From a virus (taxonomy: Duplodnaviria; Heunggongvirae; Uroviricota; Caudoviricetes): 26,889 nucleotides of DNA. Positions 4,536 to 12,863 of this stretch are shown piece by piece. Below the pieces are notes generated by a model, which saw nothing but the letters and a program-made list of their open reading frames with translations, was not told the origin of the DNA and searched no databases. The first letter of the stretch is position 1, and every line of letters begins with the position of its first letter. The DNA is taken from IMG/VR virus record IMGVR_UViG_2537562020_000004. One strand, 5' to 3'. The position numbers and the translations under genes are program-made.

Positions 4536-4874
4536 TTATTCCCAAAGTGCTGTTGCAGCATCCATTACAGGATCCAAAGGAATTTTTACGCCTGCATACT
4601 CCGGGCTATCTTTCCAAACAGTATCAATATTGCTCCCCTCAAGCTTTCCAGACTTTACTCCATCAATCGCAAAACCATTTAATGGGTATCGGTCATCTGT
4701 TGCTTTGTCGTACACAAAGGCATATTTACCGTTGACACAAGACACCGTAGCTTTTTCAAAAGTTAACGGCCAATCCTCACCAAACTTAGCGCCATCTAAA
4801 TCCTGTGTTTTTTCAGCGGCTGAGGCTCCAAAAGAAAGGGTAAGAAGCAGAGCTAAAAAGAGTTTACATTTCAT
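4536..4874 (-). CDS. Small secreted protein (112 aa) with N-terminal signal peptide; cargo gene between cI and int
   Basis: Start MKCKLFLALLLTLSFGASA-AEK (signal peptidase I-type site), RBS AAGGGA upstream; tightly packed between cI stop (4883) and int start (4513) on the same strand. Confidence 0.6.
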   Translation of the reverse strand: MKCKLFLALLLTLSFGASAAEKTQDLDGAKFGEDWPLTFEKATVSCVNGKYAFVYDKATDDRYPLNGFAIDGVKSGKLEGSNIDTVWKDSPEYAGVKIPLDPVMDAATALWE

Positions 4875-4882
4875 AATGTCCC

Positions 4883-5743
4883 TTACACGTGTTTTTCCAA
4901 TGTGAAAACTACAGCCCCGGCAGGAGTAATGTCTGTAATGTTGCATTCAAACTCAGCAGACTTATTTGACAACCTGACTTTTCCACCGGGCAAGCGAATT
5001 ACATCAAAAACATCAAGAGCGCCGTCGATATCAATTAACCAGCGACCATTACTTATATTCGAAGCAGAACAGTCGACAAGCCAAGAGGCAGCTACACCGT
5101 CAACAAAAATCAATTCCCCTGAGTTAGAAGGAATCATTGAGGGGTCAGGATGCCACGTTCCTGCATCCTTAAGCTCACCAGATTCAAGACGAGATTTTTT
5201 AATAGAAAAACCAGATGTGACATCTTCCCTGTTAGCTCGCATTTGCCCCTTGCCTGTTGCTAACCATTCCAGTGACGTATCGGTATCAAGAGCGCATGTA
5301 ACAACAACATCACCAGGGAAAAAATCTCGCCTTACCCATGTGCTAATTGTGCCAGAGGAAATGCCGAGCAAATCACCGAGCTCCTTTTGCATGGTAAAGC
5401 CATACGCATCAAGAATCCTACGCAAAACGGTTTTACCACCATTCGTCATAATCTCGTCATAAAGCTCTTTGCCTTTTAACTTGCAACTGGCTCGCTCGTG
5501 ATTTGCATTTGCAAGTTCTCCATTTACAAGCCAATTGATATCAGCTCCCGTGTCAAGACAACACCTAACTATGACATTGCCAGGTATTGCATCACGCTGA
5601 ACCCAGCCGCTAACGCTGTGTTTAGCGATACCTAGCAGGTCAGCCAAATCCTTTTGCATCTTGACCCCATAGGCTGACATTAAGCGTTCCAATACGCCGT
5701 TCGTTGCACTAACACGCCACTGAACATCAAGCTCAGAACTCAT
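4883..5743 (-). CDS. cI: Phage 186-type CI immunity repressor (286 aa) with tandemly duplicated N-terminal DNA-binding domain
   Basis: Two consecutive ~60 aa segments (AYGVKMQKDLADLLGIAKHSVSGWVQRDAIPGNVIVRCCLDTGADINWL and AYGFTMQKELGDLLGISSGTISTWVRRDFFPGDVVVTCALDTDTSLEWL) resembling the 186 CI N-terminal domain, plus a CI-like C-terminal domain; divergent from apl/cII. Confidence 0.85.
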   Translation of the reverse strand: MSSELDVQWRVSATNGVLERLMSAYGVKMQKDLADLLGIAKHSVSGWVQRDAIPGNVIVRCCLDTGADINWLVNGELANANHERASCKLKGKELYDEIMTNGGKTVLRRILDAYGFTMQKELGDLLGISSGTISTWVRRDFFPGDVVVTCALDTDTSLEWLATGKGQMRANREDVTSGFSIKKSRLESGELKDAGTWHPDPSMIPSNSGELIFVDGVAASWLVDCSASNISNGRWLIDIDGALDVFDVIRLPGGKVRLSNKSAEFECNITDITPAGAVVFTLEKHV

Positions 5744-7805: not shown

Positions 7806-10028
7806 TTGGCTGTTCAATTCGCTTATCCGTGGAACGTCCCACGGTCGGCAATCTCCAGCCCATACCTTACTTATGAGCAACAGCATCGCCGCGACCGTAT
7901 GTTCGCGGCTTTGCTGCATGCAAAAAAGGGGCTTTCTCTCCAGCCCGACTGCGTGCGGTTAGATGTTTATCGCACTGCTGCGGTGCTGGAACAAAATCAG
8001 GGTAGTCAACGAGCCAATGCATTTTTAATCAGCTTCTGCAAAAAGGCATTGCCGCGTCTTGAACTGGTCGCAAAAAAATCCGAATGCGCTGGTATCAACA
8101 GCAAGGTATCAACCGCTGTTTTTGGAAGTCATTTTGATACTCAGCAAATGCAATATCTGTCGTCACGCATGGTTAATATGGTCGCCCGATATAACCGTCT
8201 CCCGGACATGTCGCGCGCTGATGTTGACCTGTTGGCCGCTGATATTGCTAATTTCATTCGTGGTGAACTTGCCAACATTAATGACCACGGATTCGGCGAG
8301 CTTAAAACGCTGTACACCTGGTATATTCGTGCTGGCTTTATTTCCCTCCAATTCAACGTTATCCCACCACATTGGGAGCGGGTTGAAAAAAAATATGTCG
8401 GTGCGGATGAAATCGCACCGGCTATCGCCAAAATGTTTAACGATGGGGGGTGGCGCGGTCGTTTGCGCCGTGTAGCAGCTACGTGGCGCGAACACCTGCA
8501 AATTGCAGTCGGCAACGTCAGTAAGAAAAAAAACACTTACGCGAGTAAAAACTGCGTGACTGACTGGCGTGAACAAAAGCGCCGCACTCGTGAATTTCTC
8601 AAAGGTCTGGATCTCGAAGACGAAGACGGCAACCGTATCAGCCTAATTGAAAAATATGATGGCTCAGTTGCTAACCCTGCGATTCGCCGCTGTGAGCTCA
8701 TGACCCGCATTCGTGGGTTTGAAAACATCTGTAATGAGCTCGGTTATGTCGGTGAGTTTTACACTCTAACCGCGCCGTCAAAATATCACGCCACGACTAA
8801 AGCCGGTTACCGTAACAGCAAATGGAGCGGTGCCAGCCCGGCTGACACGCAAAACTATCTAACCGGTATCTGGGCGCGTATCCGTGCCAAACTACATCGG
8901 GAAGATGTCCGTATTTTCGGTATTCGTGTCGCCGAGCCCCATCACGACGGCACTCCACACTGGCACATGCTGATGTTCATGCTGCCGGAAGATGTTGAAT
9001 ATGTTCGCTCCATCGTCCGTAAATACGCATGGAAAGAAGACCGCCACGAACTGAAAAGCGATAAATCCCAAAAAGCACGTTTCCACGCGGAGTCCATTGA
9101 CCCGGAGAAAGGCAGCGCAACCGGCTATGTTGCTAAATACATTTCAAAAAATATCGACGGTTATGCTCTCGATGGTGAAACCGATGATGAAAGCGGTGAG
9201 CTGCTGAAAGAGACAGCCCCCGCCGTTTCAGCATGGGCTGCGCGCTGGCACATCCGTCAGTTTCAGTTTATTGGTGGTGCGCCGGTGACGGTTTACCGTG
9301 AGTTGCGTCGCCTCGCTGATACCGAAACCGCGCACGGTCTGAGCGTTGAGTTTGCCGCCGTCCATGATGCCGCCGACGCTGGTGACTGGGCTGGTTATGT
9401 TAATGCTCAGGGTGGGCCGTTTGTCCGTCGCGATGATTTACAGGTGCGCACACTGTATGAACCGCGTACCGAGCTTAATCAGTACGGTGAGGAAACGGTA
9501 TGTATTAAGGGGGTCTACGATTCCTCCATAGGTGCAGGAAGCCCGATTTTAACCCGGCTCACTCAGTGGAAGATTGTTCCGAAGCGTGCTGTTGATTTGG
9601 CCGTTGACCTTCAGGACGGCAAAGCCGTCCCTCGGAGTTCTGTCAATAACTGTACGGGAAGCGAAAGCGATCCACCGATACTGGATTTAACAAAACCACT
9701 GAGTCGGCGTGAAAGACGAGAATTGACCAACCGACTCAGGAAGCAAAAGCCAGCAGCACGGCGAAAATTCATCCACGGAACGGATGAGCAAAACGCAGCT
9801 ATAGCTAAAACTATCGATGAGATACATCTGACAACCGGCATTAATATCAGCCGGGGCGAAGCCCTGCACCTGATGGCCGGTGGTAAAAGTTGTTTTGATG
9901 GTAAATGGCTACGCGGAACGGCCAAAGGAGAAATATTTTCCGCAGCACCATCGCATGAGGCTAAAGCTCGGAAAATCCTTAATCGTGTTGCGGCGATGGC
10001 TGAAGCATCAAAACCAATACATGAGTAA
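7806..10028 (+). CDS. A: Replication initiation protein A (rolling-circle endonuclease), 740 aa; start codon uncertain (TTG at 7806 or ATG at 7899)
   Basis: Conserved block YTLTAPSKYH...RVAEPHHDGTPHWHMLMF...GYVAKYISKNIDGYALDG characteristic of P2 gpA / 186 A. Confidence 0.9.
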   Translation: MAVQFAYPWNVPRSAISSPYLTYEQQHRRDRMFAALLHAKKGLSLQPDCVRLDVYRTAAVLEQNQGSQRANAFLISFCKKALPRLELVAKKSECAGINSKVSTAVFGSHFDTQQMQYLSSRMVNMVARYNRLPDMSRADVDLLAADIANFIRGELANINDHGFGELKTLYTWYIRAGFISLQFNVIPPHWERVEKKYVGADEIAPAIAKMFNDGGWRGRLRRVAATWREHLQIAVGNVSKKKNTYASKNCVTDWREQKRRTREFLKGLDLEDEDGNRISLIEKYDGSVANPAIRRCELMTRIRGFENICNELGYVGEFYTLTAPSKYHATTKAGYRNSKWSGASPADTQNYLTGIWARIRAKLHREDVRIFGIRVAEPHHDGTPHWHMLMFMLPEDVEYVRSIVRKYAWKEDRHELKSDKSQKARFHAESIDPEKGSATGYVAKYISKNIDGYALDGETDDESGELLKETAPAVSAWAARWHIRQFQFIGGAPVTVYRELRRLADTETAHGLSVEFAAVHDAADAGDWAGYVNAQGGPFVRRDDLQVRTLYEPRTELNQYGEETVCIKGVYDSSIGAGSPILTRLTQWKIVPKRAVDLAVDLQDGKAVPRSSVNNCTGSESDPPILDLTKPLSRRERRELTNRLRKQKPAARRKFIHGTDEQNAAIAKTIDEIHLTTGINISRGEALHLMAGGKSCFDGKWLRGTAKGEIFSAAPSHEAKARKILNRVAAMAEASKPIHE

Positions 10029-10102
10029 TTCATATCCATATCATGCACATACAGCAATCGCTCTATTCGTTTTTTTTCTTCCCATCTTTTGCCAATACGT
10101 GC

Positions 10103-10122
10103 TACTGTATAAATATACAGTA
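10103..10122 (+). promoter_or_regulatory. LexA operator (SOS box) TACTGTATAAATATACAGTA overlapping a promoter (186 p95-like)
   Basis: Perfect CTGT-N8-ACAG palindrome with AT-rich centre; overlaps TATAAA -10-like hexamer; 20 nt upstream of the GGGAGGG RBS of the tum-like ORF. Confidence 0.75.
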
Positions 10123-10141
10123 ACCCTGTGGGAGGGATTTC

Positions 10142-10324
10142 ATGGTTGGCGAACATTTCAGCCGAACGCAGCAAAAGTGGGCTTGTGTGCAATTTATTGC
10201 CGAGGTATCTCTGATTGCAAACTGCAAGCCATCAGACTTAAAGCTCGCGCTCACTCTCATTGCAGACCTAGCAAACAGCGAGAATAACGAAACCGAAGAT
10301 GATAATTTTTATAAGGCTGATTAG
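10142..10324 (+). CDS. Tum-like SOS-induced ORF, N-terminal part (60 aa), ends at in-frame TAG
   Basis: RBS GGGAGGG 6 nt upstream; first ORF after the LexA box; in the same frame as the following DinI-like ORF, separated only by TAG (10322-10324) and ATT. Confidence 0.5.
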   Translation: MVGEHFSRTQQKWACVQFIAEVSLIANCKPSDLKLALTLIADLANSENNETEDDNFYKAD

Positions 10325-10327
10325 ATT

Positions 10328-10561
10328 ATGAGAATCAATATCACGTTGGATAAAGAGCAAAAAATTAGTCAGGCAACATTGGATGCACTTGAGGCTGAAC
10401 TGTACCGCAATCTTCAACCTATTTACCCAAAGACTGCTATCCGAATTCGCAAGGGCTCCGCTAATGGCGTTGAACTAAGCGGTTTGAAACTGGACGAAGA
10501 TAAAAAACGAGTAATGGAAATCATGCAGCAGGTATGGGAGGACGATAGCTGGCTGCATTAA
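10328..10561 (+). CDS. DinI-family protein (77 aa)
   Basis: MRINITLDKEQKISQATLDALEAELYRNLQ...MEIMQQVWEDDSWL resembles E. coli DinI (MRIEVTIAK...ILQETWESADDWF). Confidence 0.75.
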   Translation: MRINITLDKEQKISQATLDALEAELYRNLQPIYPKTAIRIRKGSANGVELSGLKLDEDKKRVMEIMQQVWEDDSWLH

Positions 10562-10563
10562 CA

Positions 10564-10632
10564 AACGCCGCCGGTGCTGAAACTTGCTTTCAGTGCTGGC
10601 GGGGTTGAACAACTCGCACCGCGAGGCGCTAG
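10564..10632 (+). repeat. 69 bp hairpin-containing element R1 (direct repeat copy 1)
   Basis: ~88% identical to 10969-11037; contains imperfect inverted repeat GCCGCCGGTGCTGAAA-cttgc-TTTCAGTGCTGGCGG whose mismatches are G-T (G-U wobble in a plus-strand transcript); starts 3 nt after a stop codon. Confidence 0.6.
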
Positions 10633-10756
10633 TTCTTCCTCTCAAAGTTTCTCGATGTTTTATTGGTTACACACCAGTGATGAATGGGACGTTACCTTAG
10701 CGGGTTTTATAGTGGCGCTGTGGCAGCGCTAAATAAAATTCATTGAGGGCGATAAT

Positions 10757-10966
10757 ATGCATCGACTACCGGGCGAAATTCCGCAGCACAAAACTAAAAG
10801 CATCAAACTGATGGCCATCGTTCATCGTCTGCAGCAGATAATGGTCAATGAGAATTTGACACCCGCCGAGCTGGTCGGGTGTGCCGAAATAGTCAGGGAT
10901 AATTACGGCAAGCTGGATAGCATCAGCAAGCCGACACATTACTCACCGCCACCACGTCGACCATAG
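10757..10966 (+). CDS. Hypothetical protein (69 aa) flanked by repeats R1 and R2
   Basis: ORF with RBS GAGGG 7 nt upstream of ATG; no recognisable family. Confidence 0.4.
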   Translation: MHRLPGEIPQHKTKSIKLMAIVHRLQQIMVNENLTPAELVGCAEIVRDNYGKLDSISKPTHYSPPPRRP

Positions 10967-10968
10967 AT

Positions 10969-11037
10969 AACGCCGCCGGAGCTGAAACTCGCTTTCAGGT
11001 CTGGCGGGGTTGAACAACGAGCTACGCGAGGCGTTAG
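10969..11037 (+). repeat. 69 bp hairpin-containing element R2 (direct repeat copy 2)
   Basis: Aligns with R1 with ~8 mismatches; same position relative to the preceding stop codon (TAG 10964-10966). Confidence 0.6.
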
Positions 11038-11099
11038 CCGGTCATAGCGTCGCAAATACTTCAACCGTCTGCTGGTTAAATAATTCGAGGTTTTTGGAC

Positions 11100-11294
11100 A
11101 TGCAAAATCCCCTTTCATCGAAAAATGACCCGTTTGCCGATTGGGCAAAGAATCTGACTTTAATGGCTTTAAATAACGACCTGAGCTCTCGCGAGGTGGA
11201 AAGCTACACCGCAAAAATGGTCGGGCAGGCCGGTAAAGATGAGCTATCAGTCGTTATCAAACACCTGTTAAATCACATCAGAATGCGCAAATAA
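11100..11294 (+). CDS. Hypothetical protein (64 aa)
   Basis: ATG 11100 with GAGG ~10 nt upstream; the longer track ORF (11010) would start inside R2. Confidence 0.4.
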   Translation: MQNPLSSKNDPFADWAKNLTLMALNNDLSSREVESYTAKMVGQAGKDELSVVIKHLLNHIRMRK

Positions 11295-11412: not shown

Positions 11413-11433
11413 TCGCGACAAAACCAGACTAAA

Positions 11434-11461
11434 ACCGGCACCCTGAATGCCGGTTTTTTTA
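11434..11461 (+). terminator. Rho-independent terminator ending the rightward early/SOS gene block
   Basis: Stem ACCGGCA/TGCCGGT (7 bp), 7 nt loop, followed by TTTTTTT. Confidence 0.7.
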
Positions 11462-11620
11462 TGCCATTTTTCCGCGAATTTCCCGTTTTTTAGTCGTGCA
11501 TGCATCAGGTGCATGGTTTTGCATGCGTCAGTCTTGCCCGTTCTGTCCGTGCGCCGCCAGAGCTAGCGCGGATCCAGAGTTGTCATGCAACTGCATTAAA
11601 ACCGCCCCATAAAGCGGGCA

Positions 11621-11639
11621 GGCGTGGCGGGGAAAGCAT
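11621..11639. other. cos: cos site (cohesive-end sequence GGCGTGGCGGGGAAAGCAT, phage 186-type)
   Basis: Exact 19-mer recalled as the 186 cohesive end (P2 differs at 2 positions); located between the early-operon terminator and the portal-side genes, as expected in a P2-family prophage. Confidence 0.6.
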
Positions 11640-11858: not shown

Positions 11859-12863
11859 CTAATTTACATGTATGTAGAGTTCACCGTCGCCAGACCAATC
11901 GGGACACTCTAAAACAAGCCCAAACTGCTTGAATATTTCATCAATGATTATTGTTATCTCCCGAAAATCACCAAAACCTGTAATGTGCTGGTCATTAAAC
12001 TTCCCATAAAGATTCTGAAAAGCAATGCCTAATTCTGATAATTGATATCTTATCTTTGAGTTGGATAGTGTAAGGGATAGCTTTGGATCGTATTCTTTAA
12101 TATTGATGTTTAGAGAATGGACATAACCCATCGCATAAGCATAAGAGTTGATGATTAGCCTGATACGTTTTTTTACTTCAAGATACATGTCATTCAGAGA
12201 AATATTACCGTACTTATAACCCCAGATGAGTTTTTCAATCTCGTCAGATACTTCATTTACAACAGTGTCAAGATTCTCTAAAAATAAATCGACAGTTTCT
12301 TGAGGGGCAGACCCCGAAGACATGTAATTAGCGAGATATTCAGACCATGCACGCGTGGCTGAGATAAGAAGCGCGCTACCATACTCGTTGACTGTAAAGT
12401 TTTGGGCTAAGCATGTTAGTAAGTTTTTTTCATGTACGTGCACTAATTCATGGTGAATGCGATGGATGACTGCGAGGTATCCTTCTTCTTTCAGTTTTAA
12501 GAAGCTACCATCATTGAAAAGCTCAACAAAAAAATCAATCGATAGCACAAGGGTATATTCTTCATATAGCCCATCATTGCCAATTTTTGTTACTAACTGC
12601 CCGACGGCTGCGCCCTGTTTGCTATTGGTAAATGAACTAGGGGATTTGTGTTGGTAAGAGGATGTTACCTTTTGAAGAGCTTCACTGAAGTTATAGGAAA
12701 CAATCACGCATTTTAATTTGGAGATATCAAGATTGAGATTCTTTGTTAAAGCTCGGATAGCTTCTAGTGTGAAATTACCGATATTATTTGCTTCTTGCTC
12801 AGTAGCGAAACCTTCGAGGGTTATTTTAAAATCAGTTTCCAAAATATTAATCTCCGCGCCCAT
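11859..12863 (-). CDS. AT-rich hypothetical protein (334 aa) with HExxH motif (HELVH); cargo gene between portal gene and cos
   Basis: Long ORF with AT-biased composition contrasting with adjacent phage genes; HRIHHELVHVHE at aa 135-146 (nt ~12438-12452); co-directional with Q/P. Confidence 0.7.
   Translation of the reverse strand: MGAEINILETDFKITLEGFATEQEANNIGNFTLEAIRALTKNLNLDISKLKCVIVSYNFSEALQKVTSSYQHKSPSSFTNSKQGAAVGQLVTKIGNDGLYEEYTLVLSIDFFVELFNDGSFLKLKEEGYLAVIHRIHHELVHVHEKNLLTCLAQNFTVNEYGSALLISATRAWSEYLANYMSSGSAPQETVDLFLENLDTVVNEVSDEIEKLIWGYKYGNISLNDMYLEVKKRIRLIINSYAYAMGYVHSLNINIKEYDPKLSLTLSNSKIRYQLSELGIAFQNLYGKFNDQHITGFGDFREITIIIDEIFKQFGLVLECPDWSGDGELYIHVN

What the first reader, a model, noticed from the sequence alone, without database searches (positions are those of the whole stretch)
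10089..10561. LexA-controlled tum-like module split by an in-frame amber codon from its DinI-like domain
A perfect SOS box (10103-10122) overlaps the promoter of a 60-codon ORF that is followed, in the same reading frame and separated only by TAG-ATT, by a 77-codon DinI-family ORF. The combined length (139 codons) is close to what I recall for the SOS-induced antirepressor Tum of phage 186 (about 146 aa). This looks like either a nonsense-interrupted tum or a naturally bipartite antirepressor/DinI module; either way it determines whether the prophage can be SOS-induced.
Basis: partly seen in the sequence, partly recalled or inferred. Interest (0 to 1): 0.55.

Follow-up and report, generated by a model that had tools for sequence, protein, structure and literature searches.

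The report
Known split tumA-tumB prophage SOS operon
This is the LexA-controlled induction switch of a PSP3/186-type prophage, naturally built as two small genes (antirepressor TumA, then DinI-like TumB); the stop codon between them is the normal gene boundary, not damage, and the arrangement is already described for phage PSP3.

Summary
There is a LexA box at 10103-10122 (19/20 to consensus, the only one in the window). A 60-codon ORF (10142-10324) ends in TAG. After ATT, a 77-codon DinI-family ORF (10328-10561) follows in the same frame.

The reading "nonsense-interrupted tum" is wrong. The reading "naturally bipartite module" is right, but it is already known. The window is an E. coli prophage about 89-95% identical to Salmonella phage PSP3, where GenBank annotates these two ORFs as tumA and tumB. 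Lemire et al. 2011 state that PSP3 and Fels-2 have tum split by a stop codon, with the upstream gene encoding the antirepressor.

My survey adds the following:
- All 120 listed TumA protein clusters and 25 species-level loci stop at the same place, using TAG, TAA or TGA.
- 18 of the 25 loci have no DinI-like gene nearby.
- Where one is present, the gap is 2-17 nt and the frame varies.
- Both genes are under strong purifying selection.
- The fused 186 Tum is the minority form.

Likely mechanism: LexA cleavage derepresses the promoter, TumA inactivates the PSP3-type CI, and TumB modulates RecA.

Noticed in passing: a 76-nt covarying hairpin element follows tumB and the next ORF.

The parts
10079..10108 (+). 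p95-like SOS promoter: -35 TTCCCA (10079-10084), 18-nt spacer, -10 TACTGT (10103-10108)
   Evidence: Aligns with the annotated p95 -35/-10 of phage 186 (TTCACA / TACTGT) with near-identical spacer. The generic sigma-70 scan does not call it. Assignment is by homology only.
10103..10122 (.). LexA operator (SOS box) TACTGTATAAATATACAGTA
   Evidence: 19/20 to consensus. Unique in the window, with none in 100 shuffles. Same position as the LexA site annotated in phage 186. A CTG-N10-CAG box lies 19-25 nt upstream of tumA in all 25 related loci.
10130..10136 (+). Shine-Dalgarno GGGAGGG for tumA
   Evidence: Read from the sequence; ends 5 nt before ATG 10142.
10142..10324 (+). tumA: 60-aa small antirepressor (stop TAG 10322-10324)
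   Evidence: 98% identical to PSP3 TumA. PHROG 1993, E = 1e-31. The family is 60-61 aa in 102 of 120 clusters. dN/dS 0.07-0.10. Profile-profile match to the N-terminal domain of 186 Tum: 87% probability, E = 3.7e-6. AF2 model shows two helices, residues 3-25 and 30-48, pLDDT 66.
10322..10330 (+). Junction TAG-ATT-ATG (stop, 3-nt spacer, start); likely translational coupling
   Evidence: Identical in PSP3. The same junction joins this tumA to a different, 186-type DinI gene in E. coli EC12. In other lineages the gap is 2-17 nt in frames 0 or 2.
10328..10561 (+). tumB: 77-aa DinI-family protein
   Evidence: Pfam DinI, E = 7e-24. PHROG 189 'RecA filament binding protein DinI'. Full-length alignment to E. 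coli DinI 1GHH, E = 2.6e-9, including the acidic C-terminal helix. 99% identical to PSP3 TumB. dN/dS 0.01-0.28.
10561..10636 (+). 76-nt hairpin element, copy 1, starting at the last base of the tumB stop codon
   Evidence: Covariance model hit of 80 bits. 15-bp stem, folding z = -4.8. All 14 stem pairs show compensatory changes across 34 diverse copies. Followed by the invariant tail GGTTGAACAAC..GC...GCGAGGCG. Function unknown.
10757..10966 (+). 69-aa ORF (PSP3 gp37 homolog), probably a distal gene of the same SOS transcript
   Evidence: PHROG 11386, unknown function. Annotated as orf37 in PSP3. No promoter or terminator is called between it and tumB. Operon membership is inferred.
10966..11041 (+). 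76-nt hairpin element, copy 2, starting at the last base of the stop codon of the 69-aa ORF
   Evidence: Covariance model hit of 86 bits. Folding z = -3.8.
11431..11462 (+). First canonical intrinsic terminator downstream (CCGGCA-loop-TGCCGG followed by T7); likely end of the SOS transcript
   Evidence: Hairpin reported by the scan at 11431-11457. The T-run on the + strand was read from the sequence. Analogous to t95b of phage 186. Inferred.
4883..5743 (-). cI: 286-aa immunity repressor, presumed target of TumA
   Evidence: 98% identical to PSP3 CI. Two Phage_CI_repr HTH domains plus Phage_CI_C. The TumA-CI interaction itself is inferred from 186 and PSP3 literature.

Best explanation
This is the SOS-induction operon of a PSP3-type (Eganvirus, 186-like) prophage in an E. 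coli chromosome, in its normal two-gene form.

1. In uninduced cells LexA binds the operator at 10103-10122. The operator covers the -10 hexamer of a p95-like promoter, so the operon is silent.
2. DNA damage activates RecA and LexA cleaves itself. The operon is then transcribed, probably through to the terminator near 11431-11462.
3. TumA (60 aa, a two-helix protein with an acidic tail) binds the PSP3-type CI repressor encoded at 4883-5743 and stops it from holding its operators. The lytic promoters fire and the prophage is induced.
4. TumB starts 4 nt after the tumA stop and is probably translated by coupling. It is a DinI homolog that binds RecA filaments and tunes the SOS signal. It is an accessory, exchangeable partner and not part of the antirepressor.
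5. The TAG at 10322-10324 is the ordinary end of tumA. That tumB happens to be in the same frame has no demonstrated meaning.

Shown here: the anatomy, the homologies, conservation of the stop, purifying selection, and the modularity. Inferred from phage 186, PSP3 and related work: LexA control, the TumA-CI interaction, and the role of TumB.
For: Identity with the PSP3 module
- The region is 95% identical to PSP3, where the same ORFs are annotated tumA ('UV induction of prophage') and tumB ('similar to dinI and 3' end of 186 tum').
- CI is 98% identical to PSP3 CI.

Literature
- Lemire 2011 (PMC3121763) states that PSP3 and Fels-2 have tum split by a stop codon. [quoted passage not shown]
- Lavigne 2009 (PMC2771037) states that 186, PSP3, Fels-2 and SopEphi are UV-inducible because of tum.
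- Deleting tum, or using lexA(Ind-), abolishes mitomycin induction of a P2-like E. coli prophage (PMC12055606).

Promoter and operator
- They align with the annotated p95/LexA site of 186.
- The box is unique in the window.
- A box is present in all 25 related loci.

The stop is the natural gene end
- 120 TumA clusters end at the same residue. None carries a DinI domain. The longer entries are upstream start mis-calls.
- The 25 loci use TAG 15, TAA 7 and TGA 3.
- 18 of the 25 loci lack any DinI-like gene within the held flank of up to 1.5 kb.
- PGAP annotates two genes, not a pseudogene.

Selection and modularity
- dN/dS is 0.07-0.10 for tumA and 0.01-0.28 for tumB.
- The same tumA (99%) is joined to a different DinI gene in other E. 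coli strains.
- The 186-type N-domain also occurs alone (ENT90, YenM324, many 63-67-aa 'Tum protein' entries) or split from DinI.
- A third family of 62-aa genes sits between a LexA box and a separate DinI gene.

Homology of the two proteins
- The TumA profile matches the 186 Tum N-domain profile in register: 87% probability, E = 3.7e-6.
- TumB aligns over its full length with E. coli DinI 1GHH.
Against: - No experiment on this prophage or on PSP3 TumA is available in the held literature. The PSP3 antirepressor assignment reaches print only as a personal communication cited second-hand, and Bunny et al. 2002 could not be read.
- TumA shows no BLASTP similarity to 186 Tum. The homology rests on a 32-column profile match plus synteny.
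- The promoter does not meet a generic sigma-70 consensus scan.
- The role of TumB is unknown. [quoted passage not shown]
- The AF2 model of TumA has only moderate confidence (pLDDT 66).
Confidence: 0.85

Rival explanations
1. Nonsense-interrupted tum: an ancestral 186-like fused tum gene acquired an amber mutation here, so the prophage has a damaged induction gene.
For: The two ORFs are in the same frame and separated by only TAG-ATT. Phage 186 has a single 146-aa Tum whose C-terminal half is homologous to ORF2.
Against: - The stop lies at the same residue in all 120 listed TumA clusters and all 25 loci, down to 68% identity, and all three stop codons are used.
- TumA was never found fused to DinI in the loci and listed clusters examined.
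- 18 of 25 loci have tumA alone.
- Both ORFs show strong purifying selection while synonymous sites are saturated.
- ORF2 has its own ATG.
- PSP3, a viable phage reported as UV-inducible, has the identical junction.
- PGAP does not flag a pseudogene.
Confidence: 0.02
2. Functional read-through: the in-frame UAG is leaky, or is suppressed in supE/supF hosts. A small amount of a 139-aa TumA-TumB fusion is made alongside the two separate proteins. This would mimic 186, which makes both full-length Tum and a free DinI-like Tum95.5.
For: - The stop-NNN-ATG junction stays in frame within the PSP3 clade even though the spacer varies (ATT, TTT, GTT).
- It recurs with TAA-GCG-ATG in an Atlantibacter locus.
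- Phage 186 is annotated as producing both the fusion and the internal-start DinI-like product.
Against: - Independent tumA-dinI junctions show no preference for frame 0: gap 2, 8 and 17 nt in frame 2, and gap 3 and 9 nt in frame 0.
- TAA and TGA also occur.
- The third family uses frames 0, 1 and 2.
- Most tumA genes have no DinI partner.
- The frame-0 cases in the PSP3 clade are nearly identical sequences, so they amount to one evolutionary event.
- Basal UAG read-through in wild-type E. coli is low (general knowledge, not tested here).
Confidence: 0.05
3. TumB, not TumA, is the effector of induction (for example by boosting RecA* activity against CI), and the 60-aa ORF is a leader or regulatory peptide.
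For: TumB is the only part with a recognised domain. DinI proteins act directly on RecA filaments (references listed in PMC3121763).
Against: - tumA occurs without any DinI gene in 18 of 25 loci, still behind a LexA box.
- TumA is highly conserved as a protein, with dN/dS about 0.08.
- TumA is related to the N-terminal part of 186 Tum.
- PSP3 antirepressor activity is assigned to the upstream gene.
- dinI deletions in Gifsy-1 and Gifsy-3 did not affect induction.
Confidence: 0.03

Closest known systems
tumA/tumB of Salmonella phage PSP3 (GenBank AY135486; Eganvirus PsP3)
   Same: Same two ORFs, same lengths (60 and 77 aa), with 1 aa difference in each. Same TAG-ATT-ATG junction, same LexA box and promoter, same position after the replication gene A, and the same CI type at 98% identity.
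   Different: Only host and minor sequence differences. This copy is a prophage next to yfiB in an E. coli chromosome, 100% identical over this region to strain JKHS016.
Tum of coliphage 186 (146 aa, LexA-controlled p95 operon)
   Same: Same genomic position, a homologous promoter and LexA site, and a DinI-like C-terminal part 47% identical to TumB. The N-terminal part is distantly related to TumA. Function is an antirepressor of CI (Shearwin 1998, as cited in PMC3121763).
   Different: - 186 has one fused ORF, with internal starts that also yield a free DinI-like product.
- Its N-domain shows no BLASTP similarity to TumA.
- 186 CI has a different architecture, whereas the CI here has two tandem HTH domains.
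- The 186 operon continues with orf97, which is absent here.
dinI-gfoA / dinI-gftA operons of Salmonella Gifsy prophages
   Same: A LexA-repressed operon that pairs a small antirepressor, made as a separate protein, with a DinI homolog. The repressor is inactivated by binding, not by cleavage (PMC3121763).
   Different: The gene order is reversed (dinI first). The antirepressors and repressors are unrelated lambdoid types, and irsA follows.
E. coli DinI (PDB 1GHH)
   Same: TumB aligns end to end with it, including the acidic C-terminal helix, and matches Pfam PF06183.
   Different: TumB is phage-encoded, about 35% identical by inspection of the alignment, and is co-transcribed with an antirepressor. 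Its RecA binding is untested.

Membership tests
PSP3-type tumA/tumB SOS operon | A 60-aa TumA ORF immediately followed by a separate DinI-like TumB ORF, downstream of replication gene A | tested here: met
   98-99% protein identity to PSP3 TumA and TumB, the same junction, and the same synteny.
PSP3-type tumA/tumB SOS operon | A LexA operator overlapping the promoter upstream of tumA | tested here: met
   The box at 10103-10122 is 19/20 to consensus and unique in the window. It aligns with the PSP3 and 186 p95 regions. LexA binding itself was not tested.
PSP3-type tumA/tumB SOS operon | A cognate PSP3-type CI repressor in the same prophage | tested here: met
   The 286-aa CI is 98% identical to PSP3 CI.
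PSP3-type tumA/tumB SOS operon | TumA inactivates CI and is required for UV or mitomycin induction | not testable with these tools
   Supported only by literature: a personal communication cited in PMC3121763, a general statement in PMC2771037, and a delta-tum phenotype in another P2-like prophage.
Phage 186 Tum (single-polypeptide antirepressor-DinI fusion) | One continuous ORF of about 146 aa containing both domains | tested here: not met
   A stop codon at 10322-10324 separates the two parts, and this stop is conserved throughout the TumA family.
Phage 186 Tum (single-polypeptide antirepressor-DinI fusion) | N-terminal antirepressor domain homologous to 186 Tum residues 1-70 | tested here: inconclusive
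   No BLASTP alignment. The profile-profile match is 87% probability, E = 3.7e-6, over 32 columns in register. A shared motif C-x2-3-D-x2-[IL]AL-x-LIA[DE][IL]A is visible by eye.
DinI family (Pfam PF06183) | Sequence match above the curated threshold over the whole domain | tested here: met
   84.3 bits against a cut-off of 24.2, covering profile positions 2-63 of 63. Aligns with E. coli DinI 1GHH at E = 2.6e-9.
DinI family (Pfam PF06183) | Binding to RecA filaments through the acidic C-terminal helix | not testable with these tools
   The acidic, tryptophan-containing C-terminus (VWEDDSW) is conserved. Binding was not tested.

The most novel reading that the evidence does not exclude
In the PSP3 clade the in-frame UAG three nucleotides before the tumB start may allow a small fraction of ribosomes (or many, in amber-suppressor hosts) to make a 139-aa TumA-TumB fusion equivalent to 186 Tum. 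The phage would then produce three species (TumA, TumB and the fusion) whose ratio tunes induction. The arrangement would also be the one-mutation intermediate between split and fused tum genes.
Probability: 0.05. Interest if true: 0.4.

Novelty: already known. Interest (0 to 1): 0.15.

Why it matters
For this genome, the result means the prophage carries an intact, not a crippled, SOS-induction module. It should be inducible by DNA damage through an antirepressor and not through repressor cleavage.

More generally, the survey shows that the textbook fused 186 Tum is the exception. The common design in P2/186-like prophages of enterobacteria has three parts:
- a LexA box;
- a small antirepressor of about 60 aa, drawn from at least three related types that probably match different CI repressors;
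- an optional, exchangeable DinI-like gene.

That is useful for annotation, because TumA is mostly labelled 'hypothetical protein' and PHROG 1993 is 'unknown function'. It does not change current understanding.

Tried and rejected
- Generic promoter and terminator scans of 9900-11100 found nothing. The promoter was assigned by alignment to 186 p95 instead.
- BLASTP of TumA against 186 Tum gave no alignment. A single-sequence hhalign was weak at 55%. Only profile against profile reached 87%.
- Bunny et al. 2002 (PMC151935) and Nilsson et al. 2004 (PMID 12949155) are not held. The primary description of the split tum, and any earlier description of the hairpin element, could therefore not be read.
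- A paper search for 'tumA/tumB' returned only irrelevant hits.
- The search with the 186 N-domain listed no full-length 146-aa Tum among its best 120, many of which are fragments. I therefore did not use it to estimate the fused-to-split ratio. I relied on phage records and on DNA loci.
- The TumA profile found no solved structure. The AF2 model is a simple two-helix hairpin of moderate confidence, so I ran no fold search, because matches to such a model would be meaningless.
- Rfam gave no credible match for the region or the hairpin element at gathering or E-value thresholds.
- I considered integron attC-like sites for the hairpin element, since GTTGAAC fits GTTRRRY. I rejected this because no complementary RYYYAAC arm is present and the 30-nt invariant tail has no counterpart in attC.
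- I considered a fossil cos site, because GCGAGGCG resembles the cos core. The real cos at 11621-11639 has different flanks.
- A literal text search for the element's sequence in the paper library found nothing relevant.
Full report
**1. Observation**

- A LexA box, TACTGTATAAATATACAGTA, lies at 10103-10122. It is 19/20 to the consensus TACTG(TA)5CAGTA. It is the only site in the window within 3 mismatches, and none appeared in 100 shuffles.
- GGGAGGG at 10130-10136 precedes ATG 10142.
- The first ORF runs 60 codons to TAG 10322-10324. ATT follows, and ATG 10328 opens a 77-codon ORF ending at 10561.
- The two ORFs share a frame, since 186 nt separate the two start codons.
- The second ORF is a clear DinI-family protein (Pfam PF06183, E = 7e-24). 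It aligns end to end with E. coli DinI 1GHH at E = 2.6e-9.

**2. Context**

The window is a P2/186-like prophage.
- It is 97% identical over 86% of its length to Escherichia phage vB_EcoM-613R3, and 89-90% identical over 74% to Salmonella phages SEN1 and PSP3.
- The region of the finding is 100% identical to E. coli JKHS016. There the prophage sits beside yfiB, with this gene order: int, DUF2511 gene, cI, apl-like gene, cII, fil, further small genes, replication gene A, the two ORFs, then small ORFs, cos, portal and terminase.
- cos (GGCGTGGCGGGGAAAGCAT) is at 11621-11639.

**3. Identity of the module**

- The 651-bp region is 95% identical to PSP3. GenBank AY135486 annotates exactly these ORFs as tumA ('similar to 5' end 186 tum; UV induction of prophage') and tumB ('similar to dinI and 3' end of 186 tum').
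- PSP3 has the same TAG-ATT-ATG junction, and each protein differs from the window's by one residue.
- The CI repressor of the window (4883-5743, minus strand) is 98% identical to PSP3 CI.
- Lemire et al. 2011 (PMC3121763) write that 186 Tum looks like an antirepressor fused to DinI. [quoted passage not shown] They cite Bunny et al. 2002 and a personal communication from G. E. Christie.

The bipartite arrangement is therefore already on record.

**4. Comparison with phage 186**

- 186 Tum is one 146-aa ORF. Its residues 71-145 are 47% identical to TumB (E = 5e-28).
- The 186 record also annotates an internal GTG start, Tum95.5, exactly at the start of the DinI-like part. That start follows a good ribosome-binding site (AAGGAGGG). 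So 186 is annotated as making a free DinI-like protein as well.
- TumA has no BLASTP similarity to the 186 N-terminal part.
- A profile of 22 TumA proteins does match a profile of 15 186-type N-domains in register over 32 columns (87% probability, E = 3.7e-6).
- The promoter regions align closely. The annotated 186 p95 -35 (TTCACA) and -10 (TACTGT, the first 6 nt of the LexA site) correspond to TTCCCA at 10079-10084 and TACTGT at 10103-10108.

**5. Is the stop a lesion?**

No. The evidence is as follows.
- A search of the protein collection with TumA returned 208 clusters. Of the 120 listed, 102 are 60-61 aa.
- Every longer entry is an upstream start mis-call that translates through the SOS box (...LLYKYTV...).
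- All full-length entries end at the same ...FY[KE][AV][DEK] residue, and none contains a DinI domain.
- I examined 25 loci, one per bacterial species, from Escherichia, Citrobacter, Enterobacter, Klebsiella relatives, Yokenella, Kluyvera, Pluralibacter, Atlantibacter, Kosakonia, Buttiauxella, Phytobacter, Dryocola and Winslowiella. In all of them tumA follows a CTG-N10-CAG box by 19-25 nt. It stops at the same place, using TAG 15 times, TAA 7 times and TGA 3 times.
- Only 7 of the 25 loci have a DinI-like gene next to tumA (one of these copies is truncated). The other 18 have none in the held downstream flank of up to 1.5 kb.
- Both genes are under strong purifying selection although synonymous sites approach saturation. 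dN/dS is 0.07-0.10 for tumA and 0.01-0.28 for tumB.
- RefSeq annotates two genes and no pseudogene.

**6. Is the shared frame meaningful?**

Probably not.
- Among the species-level loci, the gap between tumA and the DinI gene is 3 nt in frame 0 (PSP3 clade, and an Atlantibacter locus with TAA-GCG-ATG). It is 2 nt in frame 2 in Phytobacter and 17 nt in frame 2 in Winslowiella.
- In 120 viral contigs, TumA-type junctions were: 14 with TAG and gap 3 in frame 0; 4 with TAG and gap 8 in frame 2; 1 with TAA and gap 2 in frame 2; 1 with TGA and gap 8 in frame 2; and 1 with TGA and gap 9 in frame 0. A further 6 had tumA alone.
- The frame-0 gap-3 cases are nearly identical sequences, so they amount to one event.
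- Short gaps fit translational coupling in an operon.

**7. Modularity**

- In E. coli complete genomes, 80 of 5426 carry a match, and 36 of them have the full tumA-tumB region. In others the match runs only from the promoter to about 40 nt into tumB at 99% identity.
- In strain EC12 the same TumA protein (WP_000232651.1) is followed, through the same TAG-ATT-ATG, by a different, 186-like DinI gene. The conserved MRINITLDKEQK-coding start of the DinI gene looks like the crossover point.
- Further E. coli strains have tumA alone.
- The 186-type N-domain also exists as a stand-alone SOS-box gene in Erwinia phage ENT90 and Yersinia phage vB_YenM_324. It also appears in many 63-67-aa database proteins named 'Tum protein'.
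- In the viral contigs the 186-type N-domain was fused to DinI 5 times and split from it 6 times, in frames 0, 1 and 2.
- 58 further contigs have a DinI-like gene with no TumA or 186-type hit. For those in which a box and an ORF could be located, a LexA box lies 236-296 nt upstream of the DinI gene. A third type of 62-aa gene (MQDYLLESLKLQRIDFFIKLVAASECSDEEKRLAIQWVSELTDEL...) lies between them. It shows the same helix-Cys-acidic-[IL]A[IL]xW/L pattern and is always a separate ORF, with gaps of 9-14 nt, all three frames and all three stop codons.

The general design is therefore a LexA box, a small antirepressor of variable type, and an optional separate DinI gene. The 186 fusion is the unusual form.

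**8. Mechanism**

Steps inferred from the 186, PSP3, Gifsy and DuoHS literature:
- LexA represses the promoter.
- DNA damage removes LexA.
- TumA binds CI and prevents operator binding without cleaving it.
- Lytic promoters are released.

What is shown here is the anatomy and the match between components.
- TumA and CI are both of PSP3 type.
- The CI has two tandem Phage_CI_repr HTH domains plus a Phage_CI_C domain. This architecture differs from 186 CI and is consistent with a different antirepressor type.
- An AlphaFold model of TumA gives two helices (3-25, 30-48) and a disordered acidic tail, at moderate confidence (pLDDT 66).
- TumB keeps the acidic C-terminal helix of DinI. It is expected to bind RecA filaments, but its effect on induction is unknown.
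- In Gifsy-1 and Gifsy-3, dinI deletions had no measurable effect. The 186 record notes that truncated Tum forms 'modulate SOS induction'.
- Deleting tum, or using lexA(Ind-), blocks induction of a P2-like prophage of E. coli HS (PMC12055606).

**9. What follows tumB**

- Starting at the last base of the tumB stop codon there is a 76-nt element at 10561-10636. It is repeated at 10966-11041, directly after the next ORF (69 aa, PSP3 gp37 homolog).
- It consists of a stem of about 15 bp plus an outer AAC/GTT closure, followed by an invariant tail, GGTTGAACAAC(GAGC or TCGC)NNNGCGAGGCGTTAG.
- The stem sequence differs widely between copies while pairing is kept. In 34 diverse copies all 14 stem pairs show compensatory double changes.
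- Folding z-scores are -4.8 and -3.8.
- The element has no T-run and no Rfam match.
In the tumA-oriented loci scanned with the model, every strong match is on the strand of the upstream gene. It usually sits directly after a DinI-like gene, or after tumA where there is no DinI gene.
- It follows orf97 in phage 186. In P2-type phages without tum it lies at the left edge of the variable cargo region: Wphi before the mth methylase, and P2-EC58 before a reverse transcriptase.
- That region is the hotspot of anti-phage systems described by Rousset et al. 2022. Their text, searched for hairpin, stem-loop, intergenic, repeat and terminator, mentions no such element.
- I could not read Nilsson et al. 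2004, which may describe it.
- Its function is open. Candidates are an mRNA 3'-end or processing or stabilising structure, an insulator between cassettes, shared homology for cassette exchange, or a single-strand DNA signal.
- The first canonical terminator after tumB is at about 11431-11462. The SOS transcript may therefore cover both elements and three small ORFs.

**10. Verdict**

- Novelty: already known, as PSP3 tumA/tumB. The interest of the finding itself is low.
- The survey of split, fused and stand-alone forms and the hairpin element are the only additions.

Noticed in passing
window 10561-10636 and 10966-11041 (+); also L002 3842-3917 (phage 186), L001 3512-3586 and 3916-3991 (PSP3), L155 2501-2572 (Wphi), L154 401-471 (P2-EC58): A 76-nt intergenic element, each copy starting at the stop codon of the upstream ORF. 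It has a roughly 15-bp hairpin whose sequence varies with full covariation (14 of 14 pairs compensatory in 34 copies), then an invariant tail GGTTGAACAAC..GC...GCGAGGCGTTAG. It has no T-run, no Rfam match and no annotation in phage records. It is widespread in P2/186-like phages (at least 120 viral contigs) and marks the end of the tum/dinI genes and the left edge of the variable cargo (defence) hotspot between gene A and cos. Function unknown.
   Followed up: partly
L034-L153, e.g. L037, L062, L105 (viral contigs): A third type of small gene (62 aa, MQDYLLESLKLQRIDFFIKLVAASECSDEEKRLAIQWVSELTDEL...) sits between a LexA box and a separate DinI-like gene. By pattern it resembles TumA and the 186 Tum N-domain, so it is probably another antirepressor specificity class. 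It was always split from DinI (gap 9-14 nt, frames 0, 1 and 2).
   Followed up: partly
window 4883-5743 (-): The CI repressor (286 aa) carries two tandem Phage_CI_repr helix-turn-helix domains before the Phage_CI_C domain. This is an internal duplication of the DNA-binding domain, shared with PSP3 CI.
   Followed up: partly
L029 1283-1699 (E. coli EC12) versus window 10142-10561: An identical TumA protein is joined through the same TAG-ATT-ATG junction to a different, 186-like DinI gene. Similarity to the window ends about 40 nt into tumB, which suggests recombination within the conserved 5' end of the DinI genes.
   Followed up: partly
window 11859-12863 (-): A 334-aa ORF lies between cos and the portal gene, in the P2-type cargo hotspot. 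It has no Pfam or PADLOC match and RefSeq calls it hypothetical.
   Followed up: partly
window 4536-4946 (-): A DUF2511 gene with a signal-peptide-like N-terminus is inserted between int and cI. It looks like a lysogenic-conversion (moron) gene and is also present in PSP3 as gp28.
   Followed up: no
protein database entries P0001, P0002, P0010, P0018, P0027 and others: Many database 'TumA' and 'Tum' proteins are 75-93 aa only because gene callers started upstream and translated through the SOS box (...LLYKYTV...). These N-terminal extensions are artefacts.
   Followed up: yes
L016 1687-1850 (Atlantibacter MAG): The DinI-like gene after tumA is cut short at 54 aa, by frameshift or truncation, while tumA is intact. 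This is an example of decay of the accessory DinI partner.
   Followed up: no
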